From the IMG/VR virus record IMGVR_UViG_3300024272_002379: a stretch of DNA of 64,000 nt. The stretch is one strand, 5' to 3'. The position numbers were made by a program, and so were the translations under genes. This document shows, one piece after another, positions 3,217-37,313 of the stretch. The stretch comes from a virus (Duplodnaviria > Caudoviricetes). Position 1 is the stretch's first letter, and each line of letters opens with the position of its first letter. Under the pieces are notes generated by a model. It was not told the DNA's origin. It saw only the letters and a program-made list of their open reading frames with translations, and searched no databases.

Positions 3217-3765
3217 CTAATCATCATCACCAAATAGGAGAGCTCCACCAGCTATACCGACTCCGCCAGCAATACCTGCCGCTAGTAATGTATTGTCATC
3301 TGCCCATTCTTTTACGCCAGACCAAAATCCTGCTCCAGATTCAGCGGCCTCTTCAGCCACTTCCATAGGTGCTGGTAATAATCTATCGCTAAATTCGGCT
3401 GCACTAGTTCCGTTACGTCTTCTAGCTTCAGCATATTCTTTATTGCTGATACTTTCCCATTTTTGTTTTCGTTTTGAAACTCCTAATGGTTGTCTTTCGA
3501 AAATTTCAGTACCGTCTTGCACTCTTGAACGGTAAGCATAATTCGGAGGACCAGCTTTACTTACACTCTTAGTTGCGGCTTCTGCTGTCTCTCCAAGTAT
3601 CTTTTTCTGCATTGCATTAGCAGCTTTTGCTCCAGAAACAAGTCCCTTACCTGTACCTTTCACAACTCCACCTACTGCCCCAACAGCGGTAGCACCTGCA
3701 AAACCAACTACAGCACCAGGAGCTTGAACAATACCGCCAAGTACTTTTCCTACAAGATTAGCCAT
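3217..3765 (-). CDS. Gly/Ala-rich hypothetical protein with C-terminal hydrophobic segment
   Basis: Start refined to ATG 3765 behind GAGGTG SD. Confidence 0.75.
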   Translation of the reverse strand: MANLVGKVLGGIVQAPGAVVGFAGATAVGAVGGVVKGTGKGLVSGAKAANAMQKKILGETAEAATKSVSKAGPPNYAYRSRVQDGTEIFERQPLGVSKRKQKWESISNKEYAEARRRNGTSAAEFSDRLLPAPMEVAEEAAESGAGFWSGVKEWADDNTLLAAGIAGGVGIAGGALLFGDDD

Positions 3766-13900: not shown

Positions 13901-14650
13901 ATTTATGACACTATGAAGAATCTTACAGGTGATGATGCTTCTAATACTTTGAAAGAAATCAAAGATGTTGAGGTTGATGACTTGAATGAATTAGCTACAG
14001 CATTAAATATCAGCACCGAAATCGTAGCTGTTGCAGGCTATATTGCAACATACACTAAAGACAGTAAGCAGGGCGAGGGCTTGACATATGCATGGTTATT
14101 ATTCGATGAATTATTATCAGTATTTAGCCGTGGCAACAAGAAATTTGAGCTTTTCAGATTACCTTCTTCTGTTGAGAATGCTTATATTGAAAATAAGGTT
14201 CTCTATGTCAATGGGAACAAATACATCAACATTAATGCAAATGATTGCAATAACGTTGTAATTCAGGTAATTAATGGTAGACCTTACGGTTTAATCCACA
14301 AGCTTGTGGATAAAGTAGCATCTCCTAGAAAGAGCAACGTTACTTATGGTAGTGCAGTATATACTATTGGTACTTTAGGATTTAAATATCACATTGTAAG
14401 TGAGAATCCTAAAGATGAGTGGAAGAAACTTGTCAAAGAAAATGGTTATGTATTCGACATTACTATGGATGCTACAAATCGTGCAGTTATCAGCATTAAT
14501 GGCAAATCTATTTCTGCTCTTATGAGTGTTGGTGCAAGCTTTGACTTAATGAATAAGAAAGTTAAACTTGTAAATGATATGCAGAATCCTATTAAGGAAA
14601 CAAATGCATCTATTACAAATCTTGCTGTTATTATCATTGGCGAGGCTTAA
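10916..14650 (+). CDS. single-chain two-barrel DNA-dependent RNA polymerase (YonO-like, eukaryotic RdRP-related) with N-terminal Rho-N/HeH domain
   Basis: Catalytic SGADFDGD; RdRP-family motifs DGQMIG, FQLRHGEKKG, RSPLIHP; N-terminal LKVTELKELCRKANIKGYSRMKKAELVDAL. Confidence 0.85.
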   Translation: MTNINFEDLKVTELKELCRKANIKGYSRMKKAELVDALNNNKEAKKVILNEAKTFAKNELGRDFGKAVSFWKQLRSIKFMTANDYTEMVDNWKILISLFHIAEVDGTQNRALTDSLMGTAESLRDIFCPGTDISGYSDDELKEFIESSIEEFSLSVFSKRLKKENTEIIKMSMDHISFNDQGLAYFDSTKASKFTGKEVRAHKTDMRIVESSEDGISRMLMSRGLSSITVFMGKTAQKEEEMKLINDCKRNIFKNGFVDISTGKHYMFAFQNPSSCRKSNFMFVEANDWNEVVSLWLEITGLKTWEEFQRAFFDDEGKVVMAKLLARISTRGSNSFNLSKISPVWADKIAKSNIRYCKDPSWTIKRPFKTMKGPGCMEMQEDVERTVTPGDGQMIGSFEFHALMAVALRVISENEYNEFSMLWEKANKDVKNVKEGSRLYKLIKKIPGVFQLRHGEKKGICVRYNIEAIDELKDVNAIVPDSVRKFVAGEWDEFPLEICNYIKKKDQWVALNPQFIQALEYENPNALLPIVKFWFDYMKDSLSDIAKAQQFHGIIKNSDDEENKTIAGNLVTAMRTSSDLIDDAQICNWRKDQYRKFISDMKIGRILVPGQYTYMVCDPAFIINQVFGLDLPHLAEGEYYHNGKECECGLFRSPLIHPSEAQRVKLSNNEAYWYMQDVIVFNGKDGAWDRMSGADFDGDTCAVITNDTDFGKIVVDGIRQLSFDIWEEAQKAVKKPFNMDNFIEHLVTSAKVDRTGVITNYASKALDISNHLKSAVYFAKLLGCENITLIHPQAFGEKLGSDFQPKTGIIDGVKTFMLKGFVEAKYNSQTRRVEFADTGFVGTFDFDKILEIADNYLNLVEILRILQGREIDGAKTGVYAEGVSGNDFIDAVKIKFTPHEMIVRQETLDREVALSSKCNEYWSLSPLARIHDYVVMHENEIMDYLTNGSNKIFLLQSLLTDEEANAMNTPYLMQDGSYKTLIDIMAIRKKAYNSKIYDTMKNLTGDDASNTLKEIKDVEVDDLNELATALNISTEIVAVAGYIATYTKDSKQGEGLTYAWLLFDELLSVFSRGNKKFELFRLPSSVENAYIENKVLYVNGNKYININANDCNNVVIQVINGRPYGLIHKLVDKVASPRKSNVTYGSAVYTIGTLGFKYHIVSENPKDEWKKLVKENGYVFDITMDATNRAVISINGKSISALMSVGASFDLMNKKVKLVNDMQNPIKETNASITNLAVIIIGEA

Positions 14651-21639: not shown

Positions 21640-22014
21640 GGGCCTGTAATGGTATCGACAGGGGCATGAAAGTTATGAGTTCGTCCGAGTGGTGACGCTA
21701 TCACCAACTTTAAAATTAAACGCAAACAGACCAATGTTAGCGGCTGCCTAGTTGCAGCTACCAAAACACAGTAAGATATTGCTGGTAACTGTTGAGGTTC
21801 AAAAACTAGCATAGTATAAGAAGTTCTCTGTATACAACTTAGTGAACAGAGTGGTGGAGCAAGTAAGAAACCTTACTAGCCTAGTATCTCAGGTCTGGAA
21901 GACGATAGCCAGTGAGTGAAAGCTGAGATGAAATAACTCATTTAAGTTCGTAACGACGTAAAGACTTATAATGAATAATGTTTTTGGACACGGGTTCGAC
22001 TCCCGTCAGGTCCA
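21640..22014 (+). ncRNA. ssrA: tmRNA; tag peptide (A)ANRPMLAAA
   Basis: GGGCCTG..GGTATCGAC 5' end with G3:U70; GACACGGGTTCGACTCCCGTCAGGTCCA 3' end; resume codon GCA at 21722, TAG at 21749. Confidence 0.92.
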
Positions 22015-22042
22015 CTCTATATTACTATAAGGAGACACAAAT

Positions 22043-22828
22043 ATGAAATTTCAAAAGTTTTTGGTAACTGCTCTTCTGTTAACTTTAGTTTTATATTCTA
22101 CATATTATTGGAATGAACAAAGTAAAACAGAAATCATACAAGCCGTTAACCAGTCTAGTAATGAAATATTAGAAAAAGAAAATAAAGTTGAAACCATAGT
22201 AGAAACTGTGTACATAGACAGAAAAGATAGAGACCATGAGAATTACTCTATTCTTCAACTTGATGTAAAAAGTATTTCTCAGCTTCCAGAGCTTCCAACT
22301 GGATGCGAAGTTACATCATTAGCTATTGTTTTAAACTACTTAGGATATGAGGCAGATAAAGAAATTCTTGCTGATACATATTTACCTAAAGGACCAATTG
22401 GAGAGACCCATCCCGACGTGGCTTTTATAGGTAATCCTAGAGATGCTTATGCTTATGGTGCTAACGCACCTGTATTGGTTAAAACTGCAAATGATTATTT
22501 AGCAGATATGAAATCCGACTATAAAGCTCACAATATTACTGGTACAGATTTTAAAGACTTACTTAGTTATGTAAATGATGGTTATCCAGTAATGATATGG
22601 GAAACAATTGGTTTTCTTGAACGTTATCCATCTACAAAATGGGTTATTGACAACAGAGAGTTTCAGTGGTATGCTAATTTCCATTGTATGGTGTTAATTG
22701 GTTATACAGATAGTGACTATATCTTATTAGACCCTCTGGATGAAAAGAATGAAGTTCATTTTGTAAATAAAGAACTTGTTGAAAAACGATATGACGAGCT
22801 TGCAAAGCAGGCTATTGTTATATATTAG
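22043..22828 (+). CDS. membrane-anchored peptidase C39-like protein
   Basis: N-terminal TM; QLPELPTGCEVTSL...HCMVLIGY...DP. Confidence 0.8.
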   Translation: MKFQKFLVTALLLTLVLYSTYYWNEQSKTEIIQAVNQSSNEILEKENKVETIVETVYIDRKDRDHENYSILQLDVKSISQLPELPTGCEVTSLAIVLNYLGYEADKEILADTYLPKGPIGETHPDVAFIGNPRDAYAYGANAPVLVKTANDYLADMKSDYKAHNITGTDFKDLLSYVNDGYPVMIWETIGFLERYPSTKWVIDNREFQWYANFHCMVLIGYTDSDYILLDPLDEKNEVHFVNKELVEKRYDELAKQAIVIY

Positions 22829-22888
22829 GTCATAATTAAGACCATCCTTTTGTAAAAAGATTTTTATACGGGTCTCATCAACCCGTAT
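22829..22888 (+). ncRNA. putative anti-SD/anti-start-codon antisense sRNA (copy 2), directly 5' of tRNA-Pro
   Basis: GTCATAAT-TA-AGACCATCCTTT complementary to 8010-8029; CTCATCA loop complementary to TGATGAG at 7998 and 10871. Confidence 0.55.
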
Positions 22889-22963
22889 CGGAATGTAGTT
22901 CAGCTTGGCTAGAACGCTTGTTTTGGGAACAAGAGGTCGCAGGTTCGAATCCTGTCATTCCGA
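22889..22963 (+). tRNA. tRNA-Pro(UGG)
   Basis: Cloverleaf; CTTGT-TTTGGGA-ACAAG; GGTTCGAATCC. Confidence 0.9.
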
Positions 22964-23172
22964 CTAAGACTTTTTGTTACCTCTAAGGCATTCTCTTATA
23001 CGGGTTCCGTATGGGGGATATAAGGAGCGAGGCGAACCTGAATCTTCCAGTCTCTAAAGAAGAATGAAGTGGCGTTTATGGTTATTATTTCCTTTGTACG
23101 ACAACAAAGAAATTTAATTCTTTTTCATTTTTTGGTGTTCCTTTAGGAATAAAGCTGTCTAACGACAGCTAA

Positions 23173-23252
<80 letters not shown>

Positions 23253-23339
23253 TTTTCAAAACGCCATAGTTTTGGAAAACCTCGTTTGTGTAAAAAATCA
23301 TCGAACCTGGCAGTGTATAGGTTAACTGCCACCCCACAT

Positions 23340-23412
23340 GCCCCAATTGCACAGTTGGTAGTGCGACTGATTTGTAATCAGTAGGTCGGCGGTTCGAGTC
23401 CGTCTTGGGGCT
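23340..23412 (+). tRNA. tRNA-Thr(UGU)
   Basis: ACTGA-TTTGTAA-TCAGT; GGTTCGAGTCC. Confidence 0.88.
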
Positions 23413-23857
23413 TTGTTACATAAGCATTTATGCCCTAAGTAGCAGATAGACATAAATGTGTAACAAAACGATGGTCTGCTATAATCGGTAAAGTTGTTCT
23501 ATCCTGTATAGAGGTTATTGGGTCCGATTCAGGTAAAACTAACGAAACAGGACGATTTATTGGCGTACTTTAGTGAAAGCAGAGTCGAGTAACTAAAGAG
23601 AAAATCAATACCCAGTTCATCATTCTTTCTGGGTTACGTGAGACGTTAGTATGGTCTCGCCGTAAAGATTAAGCTGTGATATAGTATCAAAGCTATATTG
23701 CGGAATCAGGTAGGATATTTATATCAGACCTAACGTATACATAAGTTAAAACGAAGGTAATCCAACAGTGAACCGCAGTACAGAAGGTGGGCCTAGTGTT
23801 TGTAATACAAAGTTAGACCGTGCGGGGCTAATGCATGTTTCTTATGATACGGTATAT

Positions 23858-23940
23858 GCAGCGTTGTGATAATGGTAGTCGGGCGGTCTTGAAAACCGTT
23901 GTGTCGAAAGGCATTGGGAGTTCAAGTCTCTCACGCTGCG
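23858..23940 (+). tRNA. tRNA-Ser(UGA)
   Basis: GCGGT-CTTGAAA-ACCGT; long variable arm; G73. Confidence 0.85.
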
Positions 23941-24079
23941 TTTGGCTAAGCATAGGTAGCCGTACCCAGATGACGAAACGACAGTCGTCATATAACAAGC
24001 CTATTGCAGTTTATCATGTACTAAACATGAAGGCTCTTCTGTTTTAGATGCCAGTCTGTGCAGGAGGGCCGAAGTCTCT

Positions 24080-24168
24080 GGAGTGTTACTCAAGTTGGTG
24101 AAGAGGGAACCCTGCTAAGGTTCTAGCGTCCATTATGGGCGGCGAAGGTTCGAGTCCTTCACACTCCG
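24080..24168 (+). tRNA. tRNA-Ser(GCU)
   Basis: GAACC-CTGCTAA-GGTTC; long variable arm; G73. Confidence 0.88.
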
Positions 24169-24434
24169 TTAAGGCTGAAGTGCAATGCTAAATTTTTATG
24201 TAATAGCACGCCCGTAAAAGACGTTGAGGTTGAGGACAATGAGTATGGAAGTGGCCTTTCGAGGCCTAACACGAAAGTTTGACAATAAGTACCGAATGCA
24301 TAAGATTGACCCATCTAAATGCTACGTCAGTGGGAGGAACTTATGTAAATACGTTGATACTACGAAGAAGTATCTGCTTGGAAAACGAATAGGTCATTCC
24401 CGTTTCTAGCATTTCTGTACGAAAACAGAATTAA

Positions 24435-24528
24435 CGGAAGGTAGCCTAGTGGCTAGGCTTGTTGCGAAAAAACGGGTGAAAGCAACTGGAAACGCCGTTT
24501 GACGTGAGTTCGAATCTCACTCTTCCGT
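24435..24528 (+). ncRNA. tRNA-like RNA with 16-nt anticodon-position loop and possible pseudoknot
   Basis: Acceptor CGGAAGG/TCTTCCG, D-arm, T-arm GTGAG-TTCGAAT-CTCAC; no canonical anticodon loop. Confidence 0.65.
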
Positions 24529-24708
24529 CTATATCATCAATATCAACTTACAACAGCCATGGTAATGTTGTGAGAGCGTCATAGGAAGACGTTCTTCCTA
24601 CTTCAAAGAGACTGGAGTATGCAACAATAGCTGATGAGGCTCATGACCCCATAAATTGCAGGATAAATAAACAGCGTCTGCTGAAAGATGACAAAGATGA
24701 TATTATTT

Positions 24709-24782
24709 GGACCATTAGCTCAGTTGGTCAGAGCGGTCGGCTCATAACCGATTGGTCCTTGGTTCGAGTCCAAGATGGTCCA
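24709..24782 (+). tRNA. tRNA-Ile2/Met(CAU)
   Basis: GGACCAT acceptor; GTCGG-CTCATAA-CCGAT; resembles Firmicutes Ile2. Confidence 0.85.
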
Positions 24783-24832
24783 CTAAGAACTCAATACGCC
24801 TCTTAACAATGCGGACCACGTTGAGTCAAAAA

Positions 24833-24957
24833 CCTGGGGGAGCTGTGGCAAGCAGCCATCTGATAAATGGTGAGTTAAAATATGAAGATACTTTATATCG
24901 GCATATTACTATGGTGAAAACCCATTCATTAACTAGGTTCGATTCCTGGCTCCAGGA
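24833..24957 (+). ncRNA. tRNA-Ile(GAU)-like RNA with ~55-60-nt insertion in the variable region
   Basis: CCTGGGG/CTCCAGG acceptor; CCAT-CTGATAA-ATGG; CTAGG-TTCGATT-CCTGG. Confidence 0.6.
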
Positions 24958-25112
24958 CTATAATGCCTAACGGCATTAATATGGAATAGAAACCCCAATC
25001 AATTCCGTGTCAAACGAATTTCAAGACTACCAGGGGGAACCTAACAAGGCTGTTATTTGTGCTGCTTGTGGCGTTAGGCTGGTAGAAGTAACCTACCCCA
25101 ATTACAATTAAA

Positions 25113-25817
25113 TATTGTGCTTTAAAATGCACACATATATCCTGGTGAAGATTGTTTAATCAACATGCCAGGGCATATCTACAGTAAGTATGAAATAATA
25201 TTCGTTACAGGCTTAGCCAGTATGTTTATTATGTAATACTGAGACGTATGAGAACATGGGATACTTTGTTCGGTAGTGCGTTTAACGGATATAAATCAAG
25301 TCCTAAGGACGTGGTGAAGTTCTGTTATGAAGAAGGGAACCCTTCAAACGATTGATATGGCGTAACTTATACATAACGATTAGTGTGACATGCTTTTGGT
25401 GAACAGAATAGACGCTCTCTGTGAGAGAATAACCCTGGGAACTGGATGAGCTGGTAACTCATTACAGATGGCAGGGAATTACCAAACAAGTTCATTCGCT
25501 GTGATACCGAGACAACTCGGAGTATAACGAAAGCATAAGTCGCAAGTAGCCTAAGGCGATAAAAGAGAATATAACAGTGATAAGATGAATGAATGTATCA
25601 TCAAAACATATTCTGAACGATTCGGGTGAAAGCTGGAGGTGCCAATCCTTCATGGGTTTTAGACTGATAAAAGGCTGTTAACCTTTATCAGTTGGGGCAA
25701 GAAGTATGGAAGTCATGAGCCATGCTCAGACTTGTCTCCCCATTCGCATAATAAATCACAATGTATATTTTATAAGATGAATAAAAGTCTATATGGTGTG
25801 TGTTTTAAAGCACAATA
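25113..25817 (+). ncRNA. large ornate ncRNA (GOLLD/ROOL-like)
   Basis: ~700 nt, ORF-free, closed by a ~20-bp terminal stem TATTGTGCTTTAAAATGCACAC/GTGTGTGTTTTAAAGCACAATA; lies inside a phage tRNA cluster. Confidence 0.55.
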
Positions 25818-25836
25818 CTAACAGCAACGGAAACTA

Positions 25837-25865
25837 TTGACATTCCATTGCTGTTTTTGTATAAT
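25837..25865 (+). promoter_or_regulatory. consensus sigma-A promoter upstream of tRNA-Tyr
   Basis: TTGACA-17-TATAAT. Confidence 0.75.
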
Positions 25866-25877
25866 TACAATCAATTC

Positions 25878-25961
25878 GGGTAGGTAGACCGTAGTTGGTA
25901 GCGGGCCAGACTGTAAATCTGGTGCCTTCGGGCTCCGTTAGTTCGATTCTGACCCTGCCCA
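25878..25961 (+). tRNA. tRNA-Tyr(GUA)
   Basis: CCAGA-CTGTAAA-TCTGG; variable arm GCCTTCGGGC. Confidence 0.88.
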
Positions 25962-26148
25962 TTTACATCAAGGACGGTTGGTGACAATTTATTTGTCAAA
26001 GGGATAAGGGCAATACATGTTACCGCTTATCGTGTAGATGTGTAGTGCAAAGTGTATTGGTGTGAGATTGTTTCCATATTAGAGAAACAGCCAATCTTAA
26101 ATGTGAAATATCTAATTAGAGAAGGATAAAGTAACAGCTTTGTATTAT

Positions 26149-26220
26149 AGAATATTAGCTTTAACGGCAAAAGCACACGGCTGATAACCGTGGTCAGCGG
26201 TTCGACTCCGCTATATTCTG
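26149..26220 (+). tRNA. tRNA-Ile(GAU)
   Basis: CACGG-CTGATAA-CCGTG; GGTTCGACTCC; atypical G discriminator. Confidence 0.8.
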
Positions 26221-26441
26221 TTCTTTGTGAGTGTGACTACTTACAATGACCTAAAACGGCTCGTAAACTTGTAGAAAGGGCAGGCCGACGGGTAAGAGTG
26301 CCGCAAGTACCAAATAACCCTGAGGGTAAAACTGGGTTCGCCTCTTTTTGAGCACGGGATGCAGAAAAGAATAGACATCTCTCAAAGTTTAGGTAAATAA
26401 ACAGCTTAGGTTGGTAACCTCTTAGTCAGAAATAACCATAT

Positions 26442-26514
26442 TGGGTATTAGCTCAGTCGGCAGAGCACATGGCTGTTAACCATGGTGTCGTAGGTTCGAG
26501 CCCTACATACCCAG
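26442..26514 (+). tRNA. tRNA-Asn(GUU)
   Basis: CATGG-CTGTTAA-CCATG. Confidence 0.9.
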
Positions 26515-26816
26515 TTTAAATCAAACTGAAACGAGTCAGGCCCAATCGCTCGATTAAGTATGTGAGGAAAGTGAGGTTGGTTGCCAGCTTACTCAAGACT
26601 TCGTGTGCTTGAGGACAGCCCATTTATGGGTCCCCACTGGTTGTAAAATGTCTTCGCATTTAAAGTGGTGTTGTAAAATACATTCCGCTTAATCTTTAGT
26701 TTGGTTTTATTTGGAGAGACATGTTGTAGCGGTTTCTACGTATGTACAAAGGCTCTGGACAAGTCTTATTTTTTGAAACAGCAAGCGTGCGATTATCAGG
26801 TTAGTCTCTCCAGTAT

Positions 26817-26890
26817 AGCGGGGTAGAGCAGTCAGGCAGCTCGCAAGGCTCATAACCTTGAGGTCATAGGTTCAAATCCTATCCCCGCCA
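26817..26890 (+). tRNA. initiator tRNA-fMet(CAU)
   Basis: A1:C72 mismatch; CAAGG-CTCATAA-CCTTG; GGTTCAAATCC. Confidence 0.88.
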
Positions 26891-26963
26891 CTCATGAAAA
26901 CAAGTGATTGTTTTCTGATATCAGGCATTTATCGGGTTCGAATAGATGTAGGTATTGTTTTTA

Positions 26964-29116: not shown

Positions 29117-29872
29117 ATGAAAAAACATCTTTATACAGTACTGACCTTTATGGTCATTCTCGTAATATGGTACAATGCATCATTGATTGCAAATCCATTA
29201 TTCATTCCTAATCCACTAGCAGTGTGGAATGATTTTAAAATACTTGTATCAGATGGCTCTATCTTTATTCATCTTATTTATACCTTCAGGAGAATTATGG
29301 TTGCTACATGCTTATCAGGACTTGTCGCACTACCGTTAGGGTTATTGGTGCGTAATTTCAAAATAGCAAAAGCAACCATTTATCCTGTAATTATGCTATT
29401 ACGTTATATACCTGTAACAGCATTCTATCCATTGCTTATTATGTGGGTTGGTATTGAAGAGGAAATGAAAGTAGCTTTTCTGTTTATCGCATGTTTTGTT
29501 TACATGCTCCCATCAGTAGTTCTTGCTCTTGATGAAGTAAACGACCAGCTTATTGATACAGGATTGACTATTGGAATGAGTAAATTACAAACTATCACCA
29601 GAATTCAATTACCATCTACATTACCTAGTATTATGAACAGTTTTGTTATGATGGTTGGTATTGGCTGGACATATTGTGCAGTAGTAGAAACAATCAATGC
29701 CAAATATGGATTAGGCTACGTAATCCATCAGGCAACCGCTAGAGGTAAAACTGATTTGGTATTCATGGCTATTATTGCCATTATGATTGTTAGCTTTGTG
29801 TTTGATAACACTTGTAAATTTTTAATCCATAAGGTATTTAAATGGAGGTACGTTAATGATAAAACTAAATAA
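29117..29872 (+). CDS. ABC transporter permease (NitT/TauT/SsuC family)
   Basis: Multiple TM helices; LRYIPVTAFYPLLIMWVGI; EAA-like loop. Confidence 0.88.
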   Translation: MKKHLYTVLTFMVILVIWYNASLIANPLFIPNPLAVWNDFKILVSDGSIFIHLIYTFRRIMVATCLSGLVALPLGLLVRNFKIAKATIYPVIMLLRYIPVTAFYPLLIMWVGIEEEMKVAFLFIACFVYMLPSVVLALDEVNDQLIDTGLTIGMSKLQTITRIQLPSTLPSIMNSFVMMVGIGWTYCAVVETINAKYGLGYVIHQATARGKTDLVFMAIIAIMIVSFVFDNTCKFLIHKVFKWRYVNDKTK

Positions 29873-30452
29873 TGTATCAATAGGCTACAATTGTCTTGCA
29901 ATTCGGAAAGATTTAAATTATAATTTCCATCAAGGTAAGATTTATGGAATCTTAGGAGAATCAGGTTGTGGCAAGACAACATTGTTAAAGACCATTGCTG
30001 GATTAATAAGACCCGTGAAAGGCTCAATAAGATGTGATATTCCTAAAAGAGAAATTTACATGATGCACCAGTCTTACACATGTTTTGATTGGTTATCATG
30101 CTTAGATAATATCTTGATAACGGAACGCATCAAACATCATAAAATTACGGACGAAATTAGAAATAAAGCAATGGAAATGCTTAAGGCTGTTGGTCTTGAA
30201 GACCATGCAGACAAATACCCAACACAGTTATCTGGCGGACAGAGACAAAGATTAGCGTTAGCACGCACGCTATTCACTTCACCTAGACTGATTTTAATGG
30301 ATGAACCATTATCAGCATTAGATGAAGAAACCCGTACAGCAATGCAGGATTTAATCCTGGATATACATAAGAAAACCTATAACACAATCATCATGATTAC
30401 ACATAGCAAATCCGAAGCGGATAAAATGTGTGATGAGATTATTAACTTTTAA
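29856..30452 (+). CDS. ABC transporter ATP-binding protein
   Basis: GESGCGKT, LSGGQRQR, LMDEP, H-loop. Confidence 0.92.
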   Translation: MIKLNNVSIGYNCLAIRKDLNYNFHQGKIYGILGESGCGKTTLLKTIAGLIRPVKGSIRCDIPKREIYMMHQSYTCFDWLSCLDNILITERIKHHKITDEIRNKAMEMLKAVGLEDHADKYPTQLSGGQRQRLALARTLFTSPRLILMDEPLSALDEETRTAMQDLILDIHKKTYNTIIMITHSKSEADKMCDEIINF

Positions 30453-30466
30453 GGGAGGACAAAACA

Positions 30467-31015
30467 ATGGCTAGTTTTCTTGAAAGAATGGGCTTAGTTG
30501 AAAAAACTGAAGAAGAAACATTCGACTACGAACCAACTGAATATGAAGTAGAAACAGATGAATCTGTTGATGTAAACCTTGAAGGAGTATCCAAAGAAAA
30601 TTTACAGACAAATCTGATTTCTGAAATTTACAATGCGAATGGACTGTCTGATATGTCTAATTCTATTTTTAAAGCAGAAGAAATCAGCAAGAGTTTACCA
30701 GCTACAATGACAACTGAAGCAAAGAAAGCTTCTGTAGTAGGTATTCTTGGTTCATTCGGTCTTACAGTCGAAGGATTAATCGAAGATGCATCCACAAGAG
30801 CATTTATGCTCGGAGGAGCAGCAACACGTATTACAGAAGATAATACAGCAGTTATTAACGCAAAGAAATTAGAAATCGAAGAAGCGAAAAAGCTTATCGA
30901 ACAGTGCGAAAAGACAATCGCAGAACATGAACAGGTTATCGCTACATCCATGGATTTAATCGAGGATGAAGTAAAGCGTATCACTGGTCTTAAAGAATTT
31001 TTAGGAGGTAAGTAA
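30467..31015 (+). CDS. coiled-coil hypothetical protein in ABC/PspA operon
   Basis: GGGAGG SD; C-terminal coiled coil. Confidence 0.75.
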   Translation: MASFLERMGLVEKTEEETFDYEPTEYEVETDESVDVNLEGVSKENLQTNLISEIYNANGLSDMSNSIFKAEEISKSLPATMTTEAKKASVVGILGSFGLTVEGLIEDASTRAFMLGGAATRITEDNTAVINAKKLEIEEAKKLIEQCEKTIAEHEQVIATSMDLIEDEVKRITGLKEFLGGK

Positions 31016-31017
31016 TT

Positions 31018-31764
31018 ATGATTACTTTAACACAGATGATTTATGCTACCATAATCATTATTGTGGTAGTGGCATTAATTGTTTCAGGCAAATTACGTGC
31101 ATTAGGTAAGGCGTTTCTTAATCTTTTCGTGGAAGATTTAGCGGCATCTCCAGAAGGAGCTGAGGCTTTATTTAACCAGAAAATTGAAGAAGTTGAAGAT
31201 AAGTATCGTAAGGCTAACGATGTTTTCTCAAGAATCGCTGGTGAACGTACAAACTGCAAGAAACAGGTAGAGAATTTAAACGCTAGATTAAAAAGAGTAG
31301 AGTCTGTTTGTGAACAGTTAGCTCAGGCTCAGGATGTAGAAAGTTTAAAAATTAAAGCTTCTGAACGTGCAGAAATCGTAGAAGAAATTAAGCTTCATGA
31401 AGAAACATTAGTAACACTTGAAGCTGCATTAAAAGACGCAACTGAAGCAAGAAATGCTTGCGAAGAAAATCTTAACGAGCTGAGAAAACAGAAGAAACAG
31501 GTTGTTACAAAGATGAAACGTAACAGAGATATGAAGGCAGTTTATGATGACCTTAATGGCATCGGTGCTGGTGACCATACTTCTAAATTACTTGATAAAG
31601 TAATTGAAAGAGGTACTGATTTAAACAATCTCGTTACAGGTTCCAAAGAGGCTTATGATTCTAAGACCTCTACAAAATCAAGAAAGATTGACCAGAAACT
31701 CAGTGCTTCTGAAAACGATGCATATGTTCAAAGTTTACTGGGCAAGTACAGCAAAAAGTCATAA
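31018..31764 (+). CDS. PspA/IM30-like coiled-coil protein with N-terminal TM
   Basis: TM helix followed by a long coiled coil typical of the PspA family. Confidence 0.6.
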   Translation: MITLTQMIYATIIIIVVVALIVSGKLRALGKAFLNLFVEDLAASPEGAEALFNQKIEEVEDKYRKANDVFSRIAGERTNCKKQVENLNARLKRVESVCEQLAQAQDVESLKIKASERAEIVEEIKLHEETLVTLEAALKDATEARNACEENLNELRKQKKQVVTKMKRNRDMKAVYDDLNGIGAGDHTSKLLDKVIERGTDLNNLVTGSKEAYDSKTSTKSRKIDQKLSASENDAYVQSLLGKYSKKS

Positions 31765-31782
31765 CATCAGGAGGGAATTATT

Positions 31783-33378
31783 ATGAAACAGTACAGAATT
31801 ACAGGTAAGGCAAAAATTTTAATCATTGTCTTTGTTATTGTAGTATTGGCAGGACTTATCGGCGGTGGCTTAAAAACAGGCCTTATCAAAAACGACATCA
31901 AAGATGGTGGTAGTAATACAGTAGTATCTCAGGACAGCAATACAGGTTCTAACAAAAAAGAAGAATCTAATGCTACAGTAAAACCAGAAGTAACAGATAC
32001 AATTAACCTCTCATTAGATGAGTGGATTGGTTGGAAATCTATTGTAGATGCTAATGGTGATTTAACAACAGATGCAGAAGAAGCTTTTGCTTTAATGGGT
32101 ATCAATGTAAACATTCATGTTATGAATGATGCCACACAGTCAAGTAATGCATTAATCAAAGGTGATTTGGATGCTGCTGGTTATACAATCAACAGAACTG
32201 CATTCTTATCTTCTAAGTTTAAAAATGCTGGCGTAGATGTTGTAATGCCATTCATTACTAACTATTCTAACGGCGGTGACGGTATTATCGCAAAATCAAG
32301 TATCAAATCAGTTAATGACTTAGTTGGTGCTAAAATCGGTGTACCAGAATTCTCTGAGGCTCAGACATTAGTTGTTTGGTTTGTAAACAATTCTAACTTA
32401 ACTCAGGCAGAAAAAGATACAATTATCGACAATCTTATTATGTTTGCAACTCCAGATGAAGCCGCTAAAGCGTTCTTCTCAGGACAGGTTGATGTAGCTG
32501 CTACATGGGAACCATATTTAACACAGGCTGAAAATATGACAGATTGCCATATCTTATTTAGTACAGCAAGTTCTTCAAATCTTGTAATGGATGGTATCTT
32601 ATTCCGTAAGGATTTCGTAGATGCTAATCCAGAAACTGTAGAAAAATTCATTATGGCTTGTTTAATGGCTGCTGATAAATATGAAACAGATTTCGATGCA
32701 ATCAGAAAAGTTATGCCTATGTATTCTACAATGTCTGATGAAGACATTAAGGCAAACTGTGTTGCTGCTAAGTTAACAACATGGAAAGATAATGCTGATT
32801 TATTAAACGGAACTGCTAAGATTATGTACACAGACATGTGTGAAGTATGGCAGTCTATCGGTGAAGAAGTCGATGCAAGTATCGTAGATACTTTATTTGA
32901 TGATAAATACATTCAGAATATCGCTTTTAATTTCAGCAGTACAGATTCATCTTATGATACAGGTAAAACTCAGGTAACAGAAGAGAATAAACAGATTATT
33001 GCTGATACACAGGCATTACTTGGCGGTACAGCATCTGTAACATTCGAGAAGAATACAGCTAAATTCTCTGATTCTGCCGCTGCTTCTGCTGAACTTAATA
33101 AGTTTATTGAAATGGCAAAAGTACTTGACGGTGCTATTATCGAGATTGCTGGTAATACAGACCCAAATCCTAACAGCGACCCTCTCGATGAGTACAATAA
33201 GAAATTGTCTTCTCAGAGAGCTGAAGCTGTTAAGAATTACTTCATCATGAACGGTATTTCTGCTGATAGAATTGTTACGGTTGGTAACGGTTCAAGCAAT
33301 CCTATCGTTGATAACGATACAGAAGAGCATCGTGCAATGAATCGTCGTACAGACGTATCATTTAAAATTATTGAATAA
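31783..33378 (+). CDS. ABC substrate-binding protein (NMT1/SsuA-like) fused to C-terminal OmpA-like peptidoglycan-binding domain
   Basis: SNGGDGII...DVAATWEPY; IAGNTD...NKKLSSQRAEAVKNY...NRRTD. Confidence 0.85.
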   Translation: MKQYRITGKAKILIIVFVIVVLAGLIGGGLKTGLIKNDIKDGGSNTVVSQDSNTGSNKKEESNATVKPEVTDTINLSLDEWIGWKSIVDANGDLTTDAEEAFALMGINVNIHVMNDATQSSNALIKGDLDAAGYTINRTAFLSSKFKNAGVDVVMPFITNYSNGGDGIIAKSSIKSVNDLVGAKIGVPEFSEAQTLVVWFVNNSNLTQAEKDTIIDNLIMFATPDEAAKAFFSGQVDVAATWEPYLTQAENMTDCHILFSTASSSNLVMDGILFRKDFVDANPETVEKFIMACLMAADKYETDFDAIRKVMPMYSTMSDEDIKANCVAAKLTTWKDNADLLNGTAKIMYTDMCEVWQSIGEEVDASIVDTLFDDKYIQNIAFNFSSTDSSYDTGKTQVTEENKQIIADTQALLGGTASVTFEKNTAKFSDSAAASAELNKFIEMAKVLDGAIIEIAGNTDPNPNSDPLDEYNKKLSSQRAEAVKNYFIMNGISADRIVTVGNGSSNPIVDNDTEEHRAMNRRTDVSFKIIE

Positions 33379-34344: not shown

Positions 34345-34845
34345 ATGGCAATAGTAGGAGAATGGATACCACAGTCTGGCTACAAAGGTAAAGCAGATGC
34401 AAACAAAGTAGCTTACGAAATTGAAACCATTGGAATCAGTAACACTACGGATGAGTTTAATACTCAGGAAATGGTAGATTATGCTCGTAATAATCCAGGG
34501 TCAGAATTACATAAGTTATTTGAATGGAACGATAGCGTTGCTGCTGAAGCATATCGAAATCAGCAAGCACGAGATATTTTACGTTTCTTAAAAATTACTG
34601 TTGTTGATGATACGACTCAGACTAAAAATCCTACATTAGTTAGGTATTTTGTTAGTACTGGTAATCATGATGGTATGTATAAGAAAACAGAACCTATATT
34701 CCAGAATGCTTCAGAAGCAGATAGGGTATTAGAAAATATGAGAAGAGACGCTGAAAACTTTATTAATAGATACAAAGCATATCTCAGTCTCAATCCAAAT
34801 TTATCTAACGCTATTACAGCTTTACAGGCAGTTGTTAATCCTTAA
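34345..34845 (+). CDS. conserved phage protein (LHxxFEWxDxxAAExYRxxQAR family), candidate accessory of RAMP locus
   Basis: MVDYARNNPGSELHKLFEWNDSVAAEAYRNQQARDILR; AGGAGG SD. Confidence 0.75.
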   Translation: MAIVGEWIPQSGYKGKADANKVAYEIETIGISNTTDEFNTQEMVDYARNNPGSELHKLFEWNDSVAAEAYRNQQARDILRFLKITVVDDTTQTKNPTLVRYFVSTGNHDGMYKKTEPIFQNASEADRVLENMRRDAENFINRYKAYLSLNPNLSNAITALQAVVNP

Positions 34846-34852
34846 GTTTTAT

Positions 34853-35567
34853 ACCTTGCTGTATATATATTGGCTTTAATTGGTCAATGAAAATACAACA
34901 AATTAGGACAAACCAATCCAGCAGAGAACATTATCAGCATACTACAGGACATAAGCAGGATAGGACATCACAAACGGCTCGTTAGAGCCTTTATATATAC
35001 AGCAAGGTTGTTGTATAAAGCTCATTATAGGACAGAATAGCTCATAGCAGATGATATCATTAAAATACATAATAACACAAAGTCTTTTATAATCTCTTAT
35101 ATGTATATCGACTTTAAATGCTTAGAGTCAATATACATGTAAGAGAGGACAGGACAACTCAGTGCATTTCTACCACAACAAATGACAATGTATAACAAAG
35201 CAGAGGGGCGATTTTCGCCCCATTTTTATGAATACATATATTGGCTTTAATGGTCAATAGAACAATACAGTGCAGAGCAGTATATAATAGCTCAGTTAAG
35301 AATACCATAGCATAACACAAATGGCTCTTAGAGCCTTTATATGTGTTCATAAATAGATATATTGACTTTAGCAGTCAATAAGCTCAAAAGACCGTAGAAC
35401 AGGACAGCTCATTACAAAGTAGTTCAGGTTAAAACAAGCGAAAACAAAGGCTCGTTAGAGTCAATGTATGTGTTTATGAAACACAAAAGCACAAAGACAG
35501 CATAATACATGTCAGTGCAACATAGGATATTACAAATCATTACAAAATCCTATTGAAAATCAATAGG
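34853..35567 (+). repeat. array of six 5-nt-periodic (NNNYA)n tracts separated by four conserved hairpin cassettes; candidate guide-RNA array
   Basis: Tracts at about 34891-34972, 35020-35079, 35147-35202, 35260-35319, 35382-35446, 35481-35544; cassette motif TATATTGRCTTTA...TTAGAGYC. Confidence 0.85.
35205..35228 (+). terminator. intrinsic terminator-like hairpin within the array
   Basis: GGGGCG-ATTTT-CGCCCC-ATTTTT. Confidence 0.6.
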
Positions 35568-35585
35568 TAGAAAGCGAGACGCATT

Positions 35586-36242
35586 ATGGCAGCTAAAGTT
35601 ACAGAAGAAGTAAAAGAGATTCAGAACAAAATTAATTTCGCTACAGCAACAATTACAATTGTTGGCGATAGTGACCTTATTCTTAACAAAATGAGAGATA
35701 GCACTACTCAGGAACTTGCAGATAAACAGGAAGGTAAAGTACAGGGTACAAAGAAACCTGTAAACATGTACGAGCATCTTGTTGGTTCCATTCATTGGCT
35801 CAAGGGAGAAGAAACAGACTATACAGAAGAAGGCTGGTTGAATGCATTAAAGAATAATGTTCCAGGTTATCCATCTTCAGGTATGAAGAAAGCATTATGT
35901 GATGCTGTTGTTCGTGTATTAGGCGAAACATATAGCACAAAGTTCAATGCTAACGTACAGATTCTTAATAGCTTCTTACCAATCGAATTTGGTTCAAGTG
36001 CTTATGATAAATCATTATTTAGCCCTCAGAAGGGTAGTCCAGTTCTTTGTTACAGAAATGTATTCAGAGATTGGAAAACAACATTTACAATTAAATATAT
36101 TCCAGACAATTATTCATTAGACCGTATCATCGAAGTTATTAACTGTGCAGGTTTTGCATGTGGTATCGGTAGCCACAGACCATCAAGTAAAGGTGGCTCC
36201 AACGGTATGTTCCACGTAGAATCCGTTATGGAAGTAGTTTAA
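35586..36242 (+). CDS. stand-alone RAMP/Cas7-like RRM-fold protein
   Basis: N-terminal strand TITIVGDSDLIL; PGYPSSGMKKAL helix; FRDWKTTFTI strand; C-terminal G-rich loop GFACGIGSHRPSSKGGSNGMFHV. Confidence 0.7.
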   Translation: MAAKVTEEVKEIQNKINFATATITIVGDSDLILNKMRDSTTQELADKQEGKVQGTKKPVNMYEHLVGSIHWLKGEETDYTEEGWLNALKNNVPGYPSSGMKKALCDAVVRVLGETYSTKFNANVQILNSFLPIEFGSSAYDKSLFSPQKGSPVLCYRNVFRDWKTTFTIKYIPDNYSLDRIIEVINCAGFACGIGSHRPSSKGGSNGMFHVESVMEVV

Positions 36243-36249
36243 GTACATA

Positions 36250-36980
36250 TGGGAAGGAAAACCCTATAATAAACCGCTAAGATGAAGGCAGACCAAGGCT
36301 GTTGCAGGACCTGAAAAGGCGTTCGCACTTAGATGTAATAAAAGCGAAGATTAGGAGACTCATATGCAAAACCCTGACATATGACATGGAGAAATACCGT
36401 TGAATGCAACCAGGTAGTTAAGATTTTATACCGACAGAAACGACCGTTACTGCGTAGCTCAAAGTCGGAAGTTTACTTAATTGAAATAAAAAACAAATAG
36501 AGAGCAAAGGTAACAGCTAAGATATTACGACCTCATGGGTGCCAACCACGCACACGAATCCGTATTAAATCTGACGTAGAGGCAAGTTCACTTAGATGCA
36601 ATCAAGAACTTTAGCGTGGGTGCTTCACAACTGCATAAATATTTTGAGAAGGAAAACTCGCTATCAAACCGCTAGGTTATGGGTCCCTTACCATGTTTAA
36701 AGACCTTGAACTCCTAGAGCGTAAGCATTTGTAACAAAAGTTTTAAAATTGAATAGTGGCTTTAGTGGTTTGATGGAAACCATCTCCCAGGAGGGGACTG
36801 GTGCGAATGAACCCAGGAGACAGGACTAACTCCTTACACCAGCGAGTCTTGAATTAGACCGCTCGGAGAAACGATGCCCAGCTAAGTTTTCAGAGGGATA
36901 AGGTATGCTTTGCAGGAAACCCTCGGTGCTGTTTGCCTATTTCTCCTACCAGGCTTCTTAGATGCAATAAAAAGACCGAT
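36250..36980 (+). ncRNA. structured ncRNA region with five tandem pseudoknot modules
   Basis: Covarying CTAAG/CTTAG, TTAAG/CTTAA and CTAGG/CCTAG pairs followed by TGNAAY-AAA. Confidence 0.6.
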
Positions 36981-37241
36981 AAAACAAAATAGGATATAGT
37001 TGGTAATATACGTAGTTTCGGGTTCGAGGAACCATTTTCTGTACCATCCACAGGAATAAACGAAGAGGAATTACAAGTACATTGGCGACAAGGTGTGCGA
37101 ACAAAGACGACCATTACAGTCATTCATGGTTAATCGTGTACAAAATGTATGAGAGTATCATATGCACTGCTCTCATACTACTTGTCGAACGAAATAAGTA
37201 TTGAAATATTTTTCAAATCTGTTACAATATATAACACATAT

Positions 37242-37313
37242 AGGGCTATCGCCAAGCGGTAAGGCACAGGATTTTGATTCCTGCATCCGTTGGTTCGAAT
37301 CCAACTAGCCCTG
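37242..37313 (+). tRNA. tRNA-Gln(UUG)
   Basis: GCCAAGCGGTAAGGC D-arm; CAGGA-TTTTGAT-TCCTG. Confidence 0.9.

What the first reader, a model, noticed from the sequence alone, without database searches (positions are those of the whole stretch)
34853..35480. Switchable hairpin cassettes bracket the tracts, including one empty cassette
Seen: cassettes at 34853-35008, 35225-35353 and 35346-35480 each have a unique long outer inverted repeat (for example ACCTTGCTGTATATA/TATATACAGCAAGGT) around a shared core TTGRCTTTA...TTAGAGYC. Each arm can alternatively fold locally (ATTGRC..GTCAAT on the left, GGCTC-GTTA-GAGYC on the right). The cassette at 35093-35146 has the same core with only a 4-nt loop and no tract. 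Inference: these stems are processing or loading signals, or scars of a mechanism that inserts and duplicates guides; the empty unit may be a pre-insertion or post-deletion site.
Basis: partly seen in the sequence, partly recalled or inferred. Interest (0 to 1): 0.75.

Follow-up and report, generated by a model that had tools for sequence, protein, structure and literature searches.

The report
Stem-bracketed guide RNAs in phage VIPR array
The four hairpin "cassettes" are conserved RNA helices that separate the guide RNAs of a phage VIPR system, a recently described CRISPR-like RNA-guided silencer; this array layout, with guides nested inside long stems, is not mentioned in the text of the three VIPR preprints I could read.

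Summary
Four 25-27-nt inverted repeats sit at the stated coordinates, with unique outer parts, a shared core and alternative local hairpins. One of them has only a 4-nt loop.

The 740-nt gap lies between a small conserved gene (a vap candidate) and a Vipr homologue. Vipr is a minimal Cas7-like RAMP; the match to PDB SUSP1 Vipr has E 4e-5. All six non-stem segments are pentamer-repeat tracts with unit A-N-N-x-Y.

I decoded two tracts with the published one-base-skip rule. One loop tract gives a phage DNA polymerase A motif. One tract lying between stems gives the HsdM motif. Each pattern has over 115 exact in-frame database hits. The stems therefore separate guides; they do not only bracket them.

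Across 29 cassettes from nine related phage loci the stem is a constant ~26 bp. It has 94% pairing, compensatory changes in 18 of 26 columns, and G.U:A.C of 51:3. This shows plus-strand RNA structure under selection, not scars. Both local hairpins also covary.

Loop tracts at orthologous positions are unrelated, while the frames are 74-96% identical. The empty cassette is filled in all five relatives that carry it, so it is most likely a deletion.

The most likely role is as processing helices for a dsRNA nuclease. This is inferred; no RNA-end data were available.

The scan's earlier notes concern this same locus only.

The parts
34345..34845 (+). Conserved 166-aa gene directly upstream of the array (P0002), a candidate VIPR accessory protein (vap).
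   Evidence: Homologues (28-87% identical) hold the same position upstream of the array in all loci, including distant ones. The only profile match is phrog_15946. The model has pLDDT 88.6 but gives only weak winged-helix-like fold rows, E >= 0.5.
34853..35008 (+). Cassette C1 (outer-stem family F1): long-range stem 34853-34879 / 34982-35008 enclosing a guide.
   Evidence: The same outer-stem family is found in L123 and L125.
34869..34888 (+). C1 left local hairpin (ATTGGC ... GGTCAAT), mutually exclusive with the core of the long stem.
   Evidence: covariation TTGGC/GCCAA, TTGAC/GTCAA, TTGGT/ATCAA and others.
34890..34975 (+). Loop guide tract of C1: 16 units A-N-N-x-Y. Units at 34895-34971 decode to QKGKIAELALGYGGS.
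   Evidence: The 12-unit pattern has >=117 exact hits in IMG/VR, all in frame in PF00476 DNA_pol_A genes, and 94 of them match all 15 units.
34976..34989 (+). C1 right local hairpin GGCTC-GTTA-GAGCC.
35009..35092 (+). Inter-stem guide tract (between C1 and C2). Units at 35017-35066 decode to AFGDAYEYL(I/M).
   Evidence: The pattern has >=120 exact hits in genome contigs, all in frame in HsdM genes (PF12161 + PF02384).
35093..35146 (+). Cassette C2 (family F2), 'empty': a 25-bp hairpin with a 4-nt loop.
   Evidence: The orthologous F2 cassette is filled (84-101 nt between the cores) in L001, L002, L119, L123 and L125.
35147..35204 (+). Inter-stem pentamer tract, near-identical in L001, L002 and L123.
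35205..35227 (+). Intrinsic-terminator-like hairpin plus T run, which splits the array into two halves.
   Evidence: It is kept through compensatory changes in L001, L002, L119, L123 and L125.
35225..35353 (+). Cassette C3 (family F4): stem 35225-35250 / 35328-35353, loop guide about 35259-35322, local hairpins at 35240-35258 and 35323-35335.
35346..35480 (+). Cassette C4 (family F5): stem 35346-35370 / 35456-35480, loop guide about 35381-35448, local hairpins at 35362-35380 and 35449-35462. It overlaps C3 by 8 nt.
   Evidence: The only other F5 cassette found is in L123.
35481..35548 (+). Conserved pentamer tract between the last stem and vipr (87% mean identity between phages).
35549..35567 (+). 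Small hairpin CCTATTG-AAAAT-CAATAGG just before the vipr ribosome-binding site.
   Evidence: It is conserved in A1.
35586..36242 (+). vipr: a 218-aa minimal Cas7-like RAMP (P0001).
   Evidence: phmmer match to PDB 36pp_D 'SUSP1 Vipr protein', E 4.1e-5 over residues 152-200 including the G-loop. The model (pLDDT 84.5) matches Csm3/Cmr4/Cas7 at E 3e-7. One homologue carries PF03787.

Best explanation
The region is the guide array of a VIPR system: a Vipr RAMP protein plus vrRNAs built of pentamer repeats. It is transcribed on the + strand together with the flanking vap-like and vipr genes.

Each 'cassette' is a ~26-bp RNA helix with three parts:
- a family-specific outer stem of 16-17 bp;
- a 2x2 U.U loop, or two U-A pairs in some families;
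- an 8-bp shared core, GGCUUUAA/UUAGAGCC.

The helices partition a polycistronic precursor into single guides. Some guides sit in the loops and others sit between neighbouring helices. The unique outer stems keep each left arm paired with its own right arm.

Inferred: the helices are cut by a double-strand-specific host nuclease (RNase III type), which frees loop guides and inter-stem guides at once. Once the outer stem is gone, the core re-pairs into the two local hairpins. These then cap the guide as 5' and 3' handles while Vipr polymerises on the A-NN-x-Y units.

The empty cassette is a helix that lost its nested guide and still works as a separator. The conserved frames also act as homology for recombination that deletes, duplicates or swaps guides.

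Shown: the RNA-level helices, the guide nature of the tracts, the hypervariable loops in conserved frames, and the filled and empty alleles.

Inferred: the cleavage, the enzyme, the refolding and the capping.
For: VIPR context:
- Vipr homology is shown.
- A vap-like gene is syntenic in all loci.
- The period-5 signal is confined to this gap within the 64-kb window.
- The published description of VIPR is bioRxiv 10.64898/2026.04.26.720920.

The tracts are guides:
- A loop tract and an inter-stem tract, decoded by the one-base-skip rule, give >=117 and >=120 exact in-frame hits in DNA_pol_A and HsdM genes.
- By my own estimate the chance expectations are roughly 0.001 and 1.

RNA helices on the + strand:
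- 29 cassettes give 26 distinct stems with 94% canonical pairing in register, against 29-52% when the partner is slid by 1-3 columns.
- 18 of 26 columns show both-side compensatory changes, 8 of them within the orthologous F2 set alone.
- G.U:A.C is 51:3 overall and 23:3 in the outer stems.
- The + strand folds with z = -10 and the - strand with z = -6.5.
- A + strand terminator is conserved.
- Cognate arms pair at 0.915 and non-cognate arms at 0.667.

Breadth and length:
- The architecture persists at 42-50% Vipr identity with different core sequences, again with G.U well above A.C.
- The helix length is constant at about 26 bp. From general knowledge, this is above the ~20-22 bp that RNase III needs.

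Two conformations:
- Both local hairpins covary.
- The closed form is the minimum-energy fold of all 28 filled cassettes, by a mean of 7.5 kcal/mol. The local hairpins would therefore be favoured mainly once the outer stem is removed.

Other points:
- No ribozyme or other Rfam family is present, and no nuclease-like neighbour was found.
- In the experimentally studied SUSP1 array, every tract is preceded by a simple 14-17-bp hairpin. By my arithmetic (12 repeats is about 60 nt, plus the tail), the ~100-nt mature vrRNA reported in the preprint would leave no room for that hairpin.
Against: - No RNA ends, expression or cleavage data are available.
- The host and its RNase III are unknown.
- The phage appears to encode its own RdRP-like RNA polymerase. 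Promoters therefore cannot be read, and a start site inside a left arm cannot be excluded from sequence alone. The G.U bias does argue that both arms are in one RNA.
- Inter-stem guides would end in half-stems rather than in the two hairpins, so 'capping' cannot be general.
- Two cassettes in L122 lack the right local hairpin.
- L118 carries a hybrid cassette with poorly matched outer arms, so a perfect stem is not strictly required for persistence.
- G.U counts are partly non-independent. One fixed core U.G and one family-wide U.G account for about 33 of the 51.
Confidence: 0.6

Rival explanations
1. The helices are not cleaved. They are structural scaffolds that present each guide as a closed loop. 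They set where the Vipr filament starts and stops, or they gate loading: closed means unloaded, and the open form with two local hairpins means loaded.
For: Both conformations are conserved with covariation. The guide ends abut the local hairpins: 5-6 nt after the left one and 4 nt before the right one in C1. The closed form is only a mean 7.5 kcal/mol more stable than the open form, which protein binding could overcome.
Against: Three of the six tracts lie outside any loop and would get no such scaffold, yet one of them decodes to a real target motif. A guide tied at both ends seems hard to reconcile with wrapping around target DNA as described for SUSP1 (abstract); that is my inference. The empty hairpin would have no role under this reading.
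Confidence: 0.2
2. The inverted repeats act mainly at the DNA level, as recombination frames (attC-like or simple homology arms) that let guides be inserted, swapped or duplicated. On this reading the RNA helices are a by-product.
For: Frames are 74-96% identical while the orthologous loop tracts are at random-level identity, 0.53-0.65 against a baseline of 0.55. L118 differs from L119 by a deletion between two right cores. L125 has a solo right arm. The window has an extra overlapping cassette and lacks family F3. A 19-nt guide segment is shared between an F2 cassette and an F3 cassette.
Against: Mismatches are overwhelmingly G.U on the + strand, 51:3, which DNA-level selection would not produce. 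The unique outer stems are kept by compensatory change. The conserved core lies at the inner end of the palindrome, not the outer end as in attC. No integrase or recombinase was seen among the neighbours examined.
Confidence: 0.1
3. The cassettes are transcription switches. The right local hairpin followed by UUUAUAU acts as a weak terminator, and the long-range pairing acts as an anti-terminator, so the pair tunes how far the polymerase reads into the array.
For: The consensus scan flags GGCTCGTTAGAGCC+TTTATATA and GGCTCTTAGAGCC+TTTATATG as terminator-like. The two folds are mutually exclusive.
Against: The stems are only 5 bp and the U tracts are interrupted. In cassettes where the right core is followed by CAAT instead of TTT (C2 and C4 in the window, and the F2 family) there is no U run. 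The left arm is made long before the right arm, so anti-termination by it would need the left local hairpin to open first. The phage polymerase is probably not the host enzyme.
Confidence: 0.07

Closest known systems
VIPR systems (Vipr + vrRNA), type II as in Escherichia phage SUSP1: bioRxiv 10.64898/2026.04.26.720920, 10.64898/2026.04.26.720927 and 10.64898/2026.10.15.759431
   Same: It has a single small Cas7-like RAMP gene flanked by a long intergenic region. Several guides of about 50-100 nt are built of pentamer units. A small accessory gene lies next to it, and the system is phage-encoded. The one-base-skip decoding gives coding-sequence targets in competing phages, here a DNA polymerase A motif. 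In SUSP1 itself a local 14-17-bp hairpin precedes every tract, which resembles the window's empty cassette.
   Different: The unit here is A-N-N-x-Y with an invariant A. It is not GGY/NN, nor the NNNGG, YNNNG or NNNNG variants named in the preprint. SUSP1 residues D177 and W178, which read the two Gs, align to S196 and H197 here. Half of the guides are nested inside ~26-bp long-range helices with unique outer stems and switchable local hairpins. The held text of the three preprints names only type II arrays, staggered arrays, hammerhead-interspersed arrays and single vrRNAs, and never mentions stems, inverted repeats or RNase. Their figures and supplements could not be read. No SUSP1-type pseudoknot tail is evident. 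One guide matches a host restriction-modification gene (hsdM).
RNase III processing stalks (rRNA operons, phage T7 early RNA, tracrRNA:pre-crRNA in type II CRISPR)
   Same: Long-range or local helices of more than 20 bp are formed by sequences flanking the RNA to be released. The helices contain G.U pairs and small internal loops and are kept by compensatory evolution.
   Different: Cleavage is not shown here. The helices carry a conserved core able to refold into two hairpins, and several helices are arrayed so that both the loops and the inter-helix segments are products.
CRISPR arrays with palindromic repeats processed by Cas6
   Same: Conserved structured elements alternate with hypervariable guide segments, next to a RAMP gene. 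Units are lost by recombination between the conserved elements.
   Different: There are no identical direct repeats and no fixed spacer length. No cas1/cas2 or Cas6 was seen among the flanking genes scanned. The conserved elements come as inverted left and right halves that pair across the guide.
Integron attC sites
   Same: They are imperfect inverted repeats with a variable central part and bounded cassettes.
   Different: The conserved core lies at the inner end, not the outer end. Mismatches are G.U-biased on one strand of RNA, and no integrase lies nearby.

Membership tests
VIPR system | A Vipr protein: a minimal single-RRM RAMP with G-loop and thumb, homologous to characterised Vipr. | tested here: met
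   phmmer to PDB 36pp_D SUSP1 Vipr gives E 4.1e-5, with R138 aligned to R157 and the G-loop aligned. The model matches Csm3/Cmr4/Cas7 at E 3e-7. tblastn finds the felixounavirus and actinophage homologues.
VIPR system | vrRNAs of about 9-16 tandem pentanucleotide units in the intergenic DNA flanking vipr. | tested here: met
   Lag-5 and lag-10 autocorrelation is 0.35-0.50 in all six tracts, against about 0.26 in coding DNA. The tracts hold 10-16 units each, and the signal is confined to this gap.
VIPR system | Conserved GGY, or the published variants NNNGG, YNNNG or NNNNG, in each unit. | tested here: not met
   The invariant base is A and the unit is A-N-N-x-Y. On the other strand it would be R-x-N-N-U. 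This counts as 'a related consensus' at best.
VIPR system | Variable dinucleotides specify a DNA target with one skipped base per unit. | tested here: met
   This was tested in silico only. Two tracts decoded this way give >=117 and >=120 exact in-frame matches in DNA_pol_A and HsdM genes.
VIPR system | An invariant structured 3' tail after the repeat tract. | tested here: inconclusive
   Loop guides end in a conserved ACAAA(T)-GGCUC..GAGCC hairpin. Inter-stem guides end at the next helix or at the terminator. No pseudoknot was looked for.
VIPR system | An accessory vap gene in the locus. | tested here: inconclusive
   A 142-173-aa gene is conserved upstream in all loci. It has only weak winged-helix-like fold similarity, and homology to vap1-6 could not be tested.
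VIPR system | vrRNAs are expressed and co-purify with Vipr. | not testable with these tools
RNase III substrate | A double-stranded RNA helix of about two turns (>= 20-22 bp). | tested here: met
   The helix is a constant ~26 bp across 26 distinct stems, with RNA-level covariation.
RNase III substrate | Staggered cleavage on both arms leaving 2-nt 3' overhangs, dependent on rnc. | not testable with these tools
   No RNA-end data are available and the host is unknown.
Hammerhead-interspersed vrRNA array (published VIPR architecture) | A hammerhead ribozyme between guides. | tested here: not met
   Rfam E-value scan of 34700-37300 found only a tRNA and a chance miRNA row.
CRISPR array | Near-identical direct repeats separated by spacers of fixed length, usually with cas1/cas2. 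| tested here: not met
   The direct-repeat families are only the shared half-cores. Tract lengths are 52-109 nt. The neighbours scanned have no Cas hits.
Integron attC | Conserved R''/R' core sites (RYYYAAC / GTTRRRY) at the outer ends of the palindrome, with an IntI integrase nearby. | tested here: not met
   The conserved core is at the inner end and the outer ends are unique. GTTAGAG occurs in only two of the three filled right arms. No integrase was found among the neighbours scanned.

The most novel reading that the evidence does not exclude
The cassette may be a missing link between simple hairpin separators, as in SUSP1, and CRISPR repeats. It is a structured frame whose two halves pair across a guide. 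It serves both as the RNA maturation signal and as the DNA homology that lets phages swap, delete and duplicate guides without any Cas1-like integrase. On this reading it is a recombination-based, frame-guided form of guide acquisition that targets both rival phages (polA) and host defence (hsdM).
Probability: 0.15. Interest if true: 0.85.

Novelty: new variant of a known kind. Interest (0 to 1): 0.6.

Why it matters
VIPR was described only in 2026. How its guides are matured, and how new guides arise, is not addressed in the parts of the three preprints I could read.

This clade of roughly 210-kb gut or rumen phages offers a clear, testable answer to the first question. Long helices under strong RNA-level selection separate the guides, and no ribozyme or locus-encoded nuclease is present, which points to a host dsRNA nuclease.

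It also gives a lead on the second question. Conserved frames hold unrelated guides at orthologous positions, and deletion, hybrid, solo-arm and empty alleles are caught in closely related genomes.

The clade also extends the code to an A-based pentamer with changed G-loop residues. That would matter to anyone engineering Vipr proteins.

Tried and rejected
Searches and look-ups that gave nothing useful:
- blastn of the region against cultured phages found no match.
- The gapped core pattern scanned in IMG/VR was too loose. Only the two contigs already known had multiple hits and the rest were single chance hits.
- No whole genome is held for the window.
- One look-up returned no DNA because the file was too large.
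- Another contig carrying the identical upstream protein has an identical array, so it gave no polymorphism.
- No supplementary files are held for the VIPR preprint.

Ideas considered and dropped:
- A CsrA or Hfq sponge, suggested by the repeated AGGACA and A-rich tracts. I dropped it once the 5-nt phase and the Vipr homology were found.
- A retron or DGR. No reverse transcriptase was seen among the ORFs I scanned (about 25 of some 80), so this was not checked across the whole window.
- A replication origin with iterons, and a cruciform or attC-type site. Both are rejected by the G.U:A.C asymmetry.
- One promoter per cassette. The sigma-70 scan was at background, 12 found against 12 expected. 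The phage also seems to have its own RdRP-like polymerase, so this remains untestable rather than excluded.

Other negatives:
- The fold search for the upstream protein gave only weak winged-helix rows.
- NCBIfam and PADLOC gave nothing for Vipr or its neighbours.

Full report
**Observation.** The arms are 25-27 nt and 84-89% complementary. The distance between the arms is 102, 4, 77 and 85 nt. The outer parts are unique and the inner core is shared. Exact copies of GGCTCNTTAGAGYC occur only at 34976 and 35449 in the 64-kb window. The 740-nt ORF-free gap 34846-35585 folds far better than shuffles, with z -10.0 on the + strand and -6.5 on the - strand, and the minimum-energy fold contains all four long helices. 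The local alternative hairpins are present as described, except that the third cassette has a 3-nt loop.

**Context.** The gene just downstream (35586-36242, 218 aa) matches the PDB chain named 'SUSP1 Vipr protein' at E 4e-5, across the G-rich loop. Its model (pLDDT 84.5) matches Csm3/Cmr4/Cas7 RAMPs at E about 1e-6 to 1e-7.

A 2026 preprint (10.64898/2026.04.26.720920) describes VIPR systems. They consist of a minimal RAMP (Vipr), an accessory gene (vap) and ~100-nt vrRNAs. The vrRNAs are made of 9-16 pentamer units, lie in the intergenic DNA flanking vipr, and recognise DNA with one skipped base per unit.

The window fits this description:
- Every non-stem segment of the gap has strong period-5 and period-10 autocorrelation, 0.35-0.50 against about 0.26 in coding DNA.
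- An invariant A recurs every five bases, giving the unit A-N-N-x-Y.
- The period-5 signal is confined to this gap.
- The upstream 166-aa gene is syntenic in all related loci. Its fold gives only weak winged-helix-like matches. This is compatible with a vap but is not proof.

**The tracts behave as guides.** I took positions 2-3 of each unit as the variable pair and applied the published skip rule.
- The loop tract of the first cassette spells 15 consecutive codon stems for QKGKIAELALGYGGS. A 12-unit degenerate pattern with 24 fixed bases has at least 117 exact matches in IMG/VR. All are in frame in family-A DNA polymerase genes, and 94 of them match all 15 units.
- The tract between the first and second helices spells AFGDAYEYL(I/M). 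Its pattern has at least 120 exact in-frame matches in HsdM genes of type I restriction-modification systems.

So there are six tracts. Three lie inside loops and three lie between helices. The helices are separators as much as brackets.

**Anatomy across relatives.** The flanking proteins led to nine further loci from ~210-kb phage contigs and shorter pieces, with Vipr 65-92% identical. Together with the window they hold 29 cassettes.

All share one design. Read from the loop outward it is an 8-bp core with a fixed U.G, then two U.U mismatches (14 stems) or two U-A pairs (11 stems), then a 16-17-bp outer stem. The total is a constant ~26 bp.

The covariation evidence over 26 distinct stems is strong:
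- 94% of positions pair in register, against 29-52% when the partner is slid by 1-3 columns.
- 18 of 26 columns show changes on both sides. Eight of these occur within the orthologous F2 set alone.
- Mismatches are G.U on the + strand 51 times and A.C 3 times (23:3 in the outer stems). About 33 of the 51 come from two conserved positions, but the remainder is still lopsided.
- Four more distant loci (Vipr 42-50% identical, different core sequences) show the same bias and the same long-range helices around period-5 tracts.

This is selection on a + strand RNA structure. It is not a DNA palindrome and it is not a scar.

The outer stems fall into families that keep a fixed order: F1, F2, terminator, F3, F4, F5. 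Cognate arms pair at 0.915 and non-cognate arms at 0.667.

**Two conformations.**
- The left local hairpin keeps pairing through TTGGC/GTCAA, TTGGC/GCCAA, TTGAC/GTCAA, TTGAC/GTTAA and TTGGT/ATCAA.
- The right local hairpin keeps pairing through GGCTC/GAGCC, GACTC/GAGTC and GGCTT/AAGCC.
- Both hairpins use core bases that also form the long helix, so the folds are mutually exclusive.
- The closed helix is the minimum-energy state of all 28 filled cassettes, by a mean of 7.5 kcal/mol.
- The hairpins would therefore dominate mainly after the outer stem is removed or held apart.

**Evolution of the array.** Loop tracts at orthologous positions are no more alike than random tracts: 0.53-0.65 against a baseline of 0.55-0.56. 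By contrast the frames are 0.74-0.96 identical, the last tract is 0.87 and the vipr coding sequence is 0.81.

Several rearrangements were caught in closely related genomes:
- L118 and L119 encode the same Vipr protein. L118 has lost one cassette by recombination between two right cores, which leaves a hybrid with poorly matched outer arms.
- L125 carries a solo right arm.
- The window lacks F3 and has an extra F5 cassette that overlaps F4 by 8 nt.
- The window's empty F2 cassette is filled (84-101 nt between cores) in all five relatives that have F2. Loss is therefore the parsimonious reading.

**Comparison with the known system.** In SUSP1 every GGY tract is preceded by a simple 14-17-bp hairpin with a 5-nt loop, and no long-range helix spans a tract. 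The window's empty cassette looks like that separator. The filled cassettes look like separators with a guide nested in the loop.

The held text of the three VIPR preprints names type II arrays, staggered arrays, hammerhead-interspersed arrays and single-guide layouts. It never mentions stems, inverted repeats or RNases. Figures and supplements were not readable. Rfam finds no ribozyme here.

The unit also differs from the published consensus. It has an invariant A rather than G. SUSP1 residues D177 and W178, which read the two Gs, align to S196 and H197 here.

**Mechanism.** The best reading is that the helices are maturation signals in a polycistronic precursor and are cut by a host dsRNA nuclease. 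Several points support this:
- The helix length is constant and above two turns.
- Selection acts at the RNA level.
- No ribozyme and no locus-encoded nuclease is present.
- A single cut through each helix would resolve both loop guides and inter-helix guides.
- SUSP1 has a similar hairpin before every tract, which by my arithmetic the ~100-nt mature vrRNA would leave no room for.

Refolding of the core into two capping hairpins after cleavage would explain why both folds are conserved. None of this is shown. There are no RNA data, the host is unknown, and the phage seems to carry its own RdRP-like RNA polymerase, so promoters cannot be read.

The rivals are uncleaved scaffolds or loading gates, DNA-level recombination frames, and terminator/anti-terminator switches. 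They are weighed in the rivals section. The recombination role is probably real, but as a secondary consequence.

**Verdict.** The finding is real. It belongs to a system published in 2026. It adds an array architecture, and evidence about its evolution, that I could not find in the text of those papers.

Noticed in passing
window 34890-35548: The pentamer unit of this clade is A-N-N-x-Y with an invariant A. It is not the published GGY/NN or its G-containing variants. SUSP1 Vipr residues D177 and W178, which read the two guanines, align to S196 and H197 in this protein.
   Followed up: partly
window 35017-35066: A guide between two helices decodes to the HsdM motif AFGDAYEYL(I/M), found in frame in at least 120 bacterial genomes, mostly Bacillota and gut taxa. 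This suggests the phage uses VIPR against host restriction-modification as well as against rival phages.
   Followed up: partly
window 35481-35567: The last pentamer tract and a small hairpin lie in what would be the 5' leader of vipr. They are 87% identical between phages, more than the coding sequence. This could be an autoregulatory Vipr binding site rather than a guide.
   Followed up: no
window 36243-37240: An ORF-free kilobase lies directly downstream of vipr and before two tRNA-Gln genes. It has no period-5 signal and no Rfam match. A first-stage note reads it as tandem pseudoknot modules.
   Followed up: no
window 10916-14650: A 1244-aa ORF carries a PF05183 RdRP domain (E 2e-23) and an N-terminal Rho_N domain. 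It resembles the single-subunit RNA polymerases of some large phages, so host-type promoter scans may not apply to this genome.
   Followed up: no
window 21640-26891: A tmRNA, a ROOL RNA (231 bits) and eleven tRNA genes are clustered on the + strand. The phage genome is about 213 kb, judging from contigs that carry identical proteins.
   Followed up: no
L375 (SUSP1, NC_028808.2) 1895-1933, 2028-2065, 3454-3486: In the experimentally studied SUSP1 array, each GGY tract is preceded by a G.U-rich hairpin of 14-17 bp with a 5-nt loop. The text of the preprints does not mention it. It may be the type II maturation signal.
   Followed up: partly
L118 2753-2889 versus L119 2572-2889: Two contigs encode the identical Vipr protein but differ by one whole cassette. 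The breakpoint lies inside the shared right core, and the survivor is a hybrid with mismatched outer arms.
   Followed up: yes
window 29117-33378: The phage carries ABC-transporter permease and ATPase genes, a PspA-like gene, and a 531-aa protein that fuses an NMT1-type substrate-binding domain with an OmpA domain.
   Followed up: no
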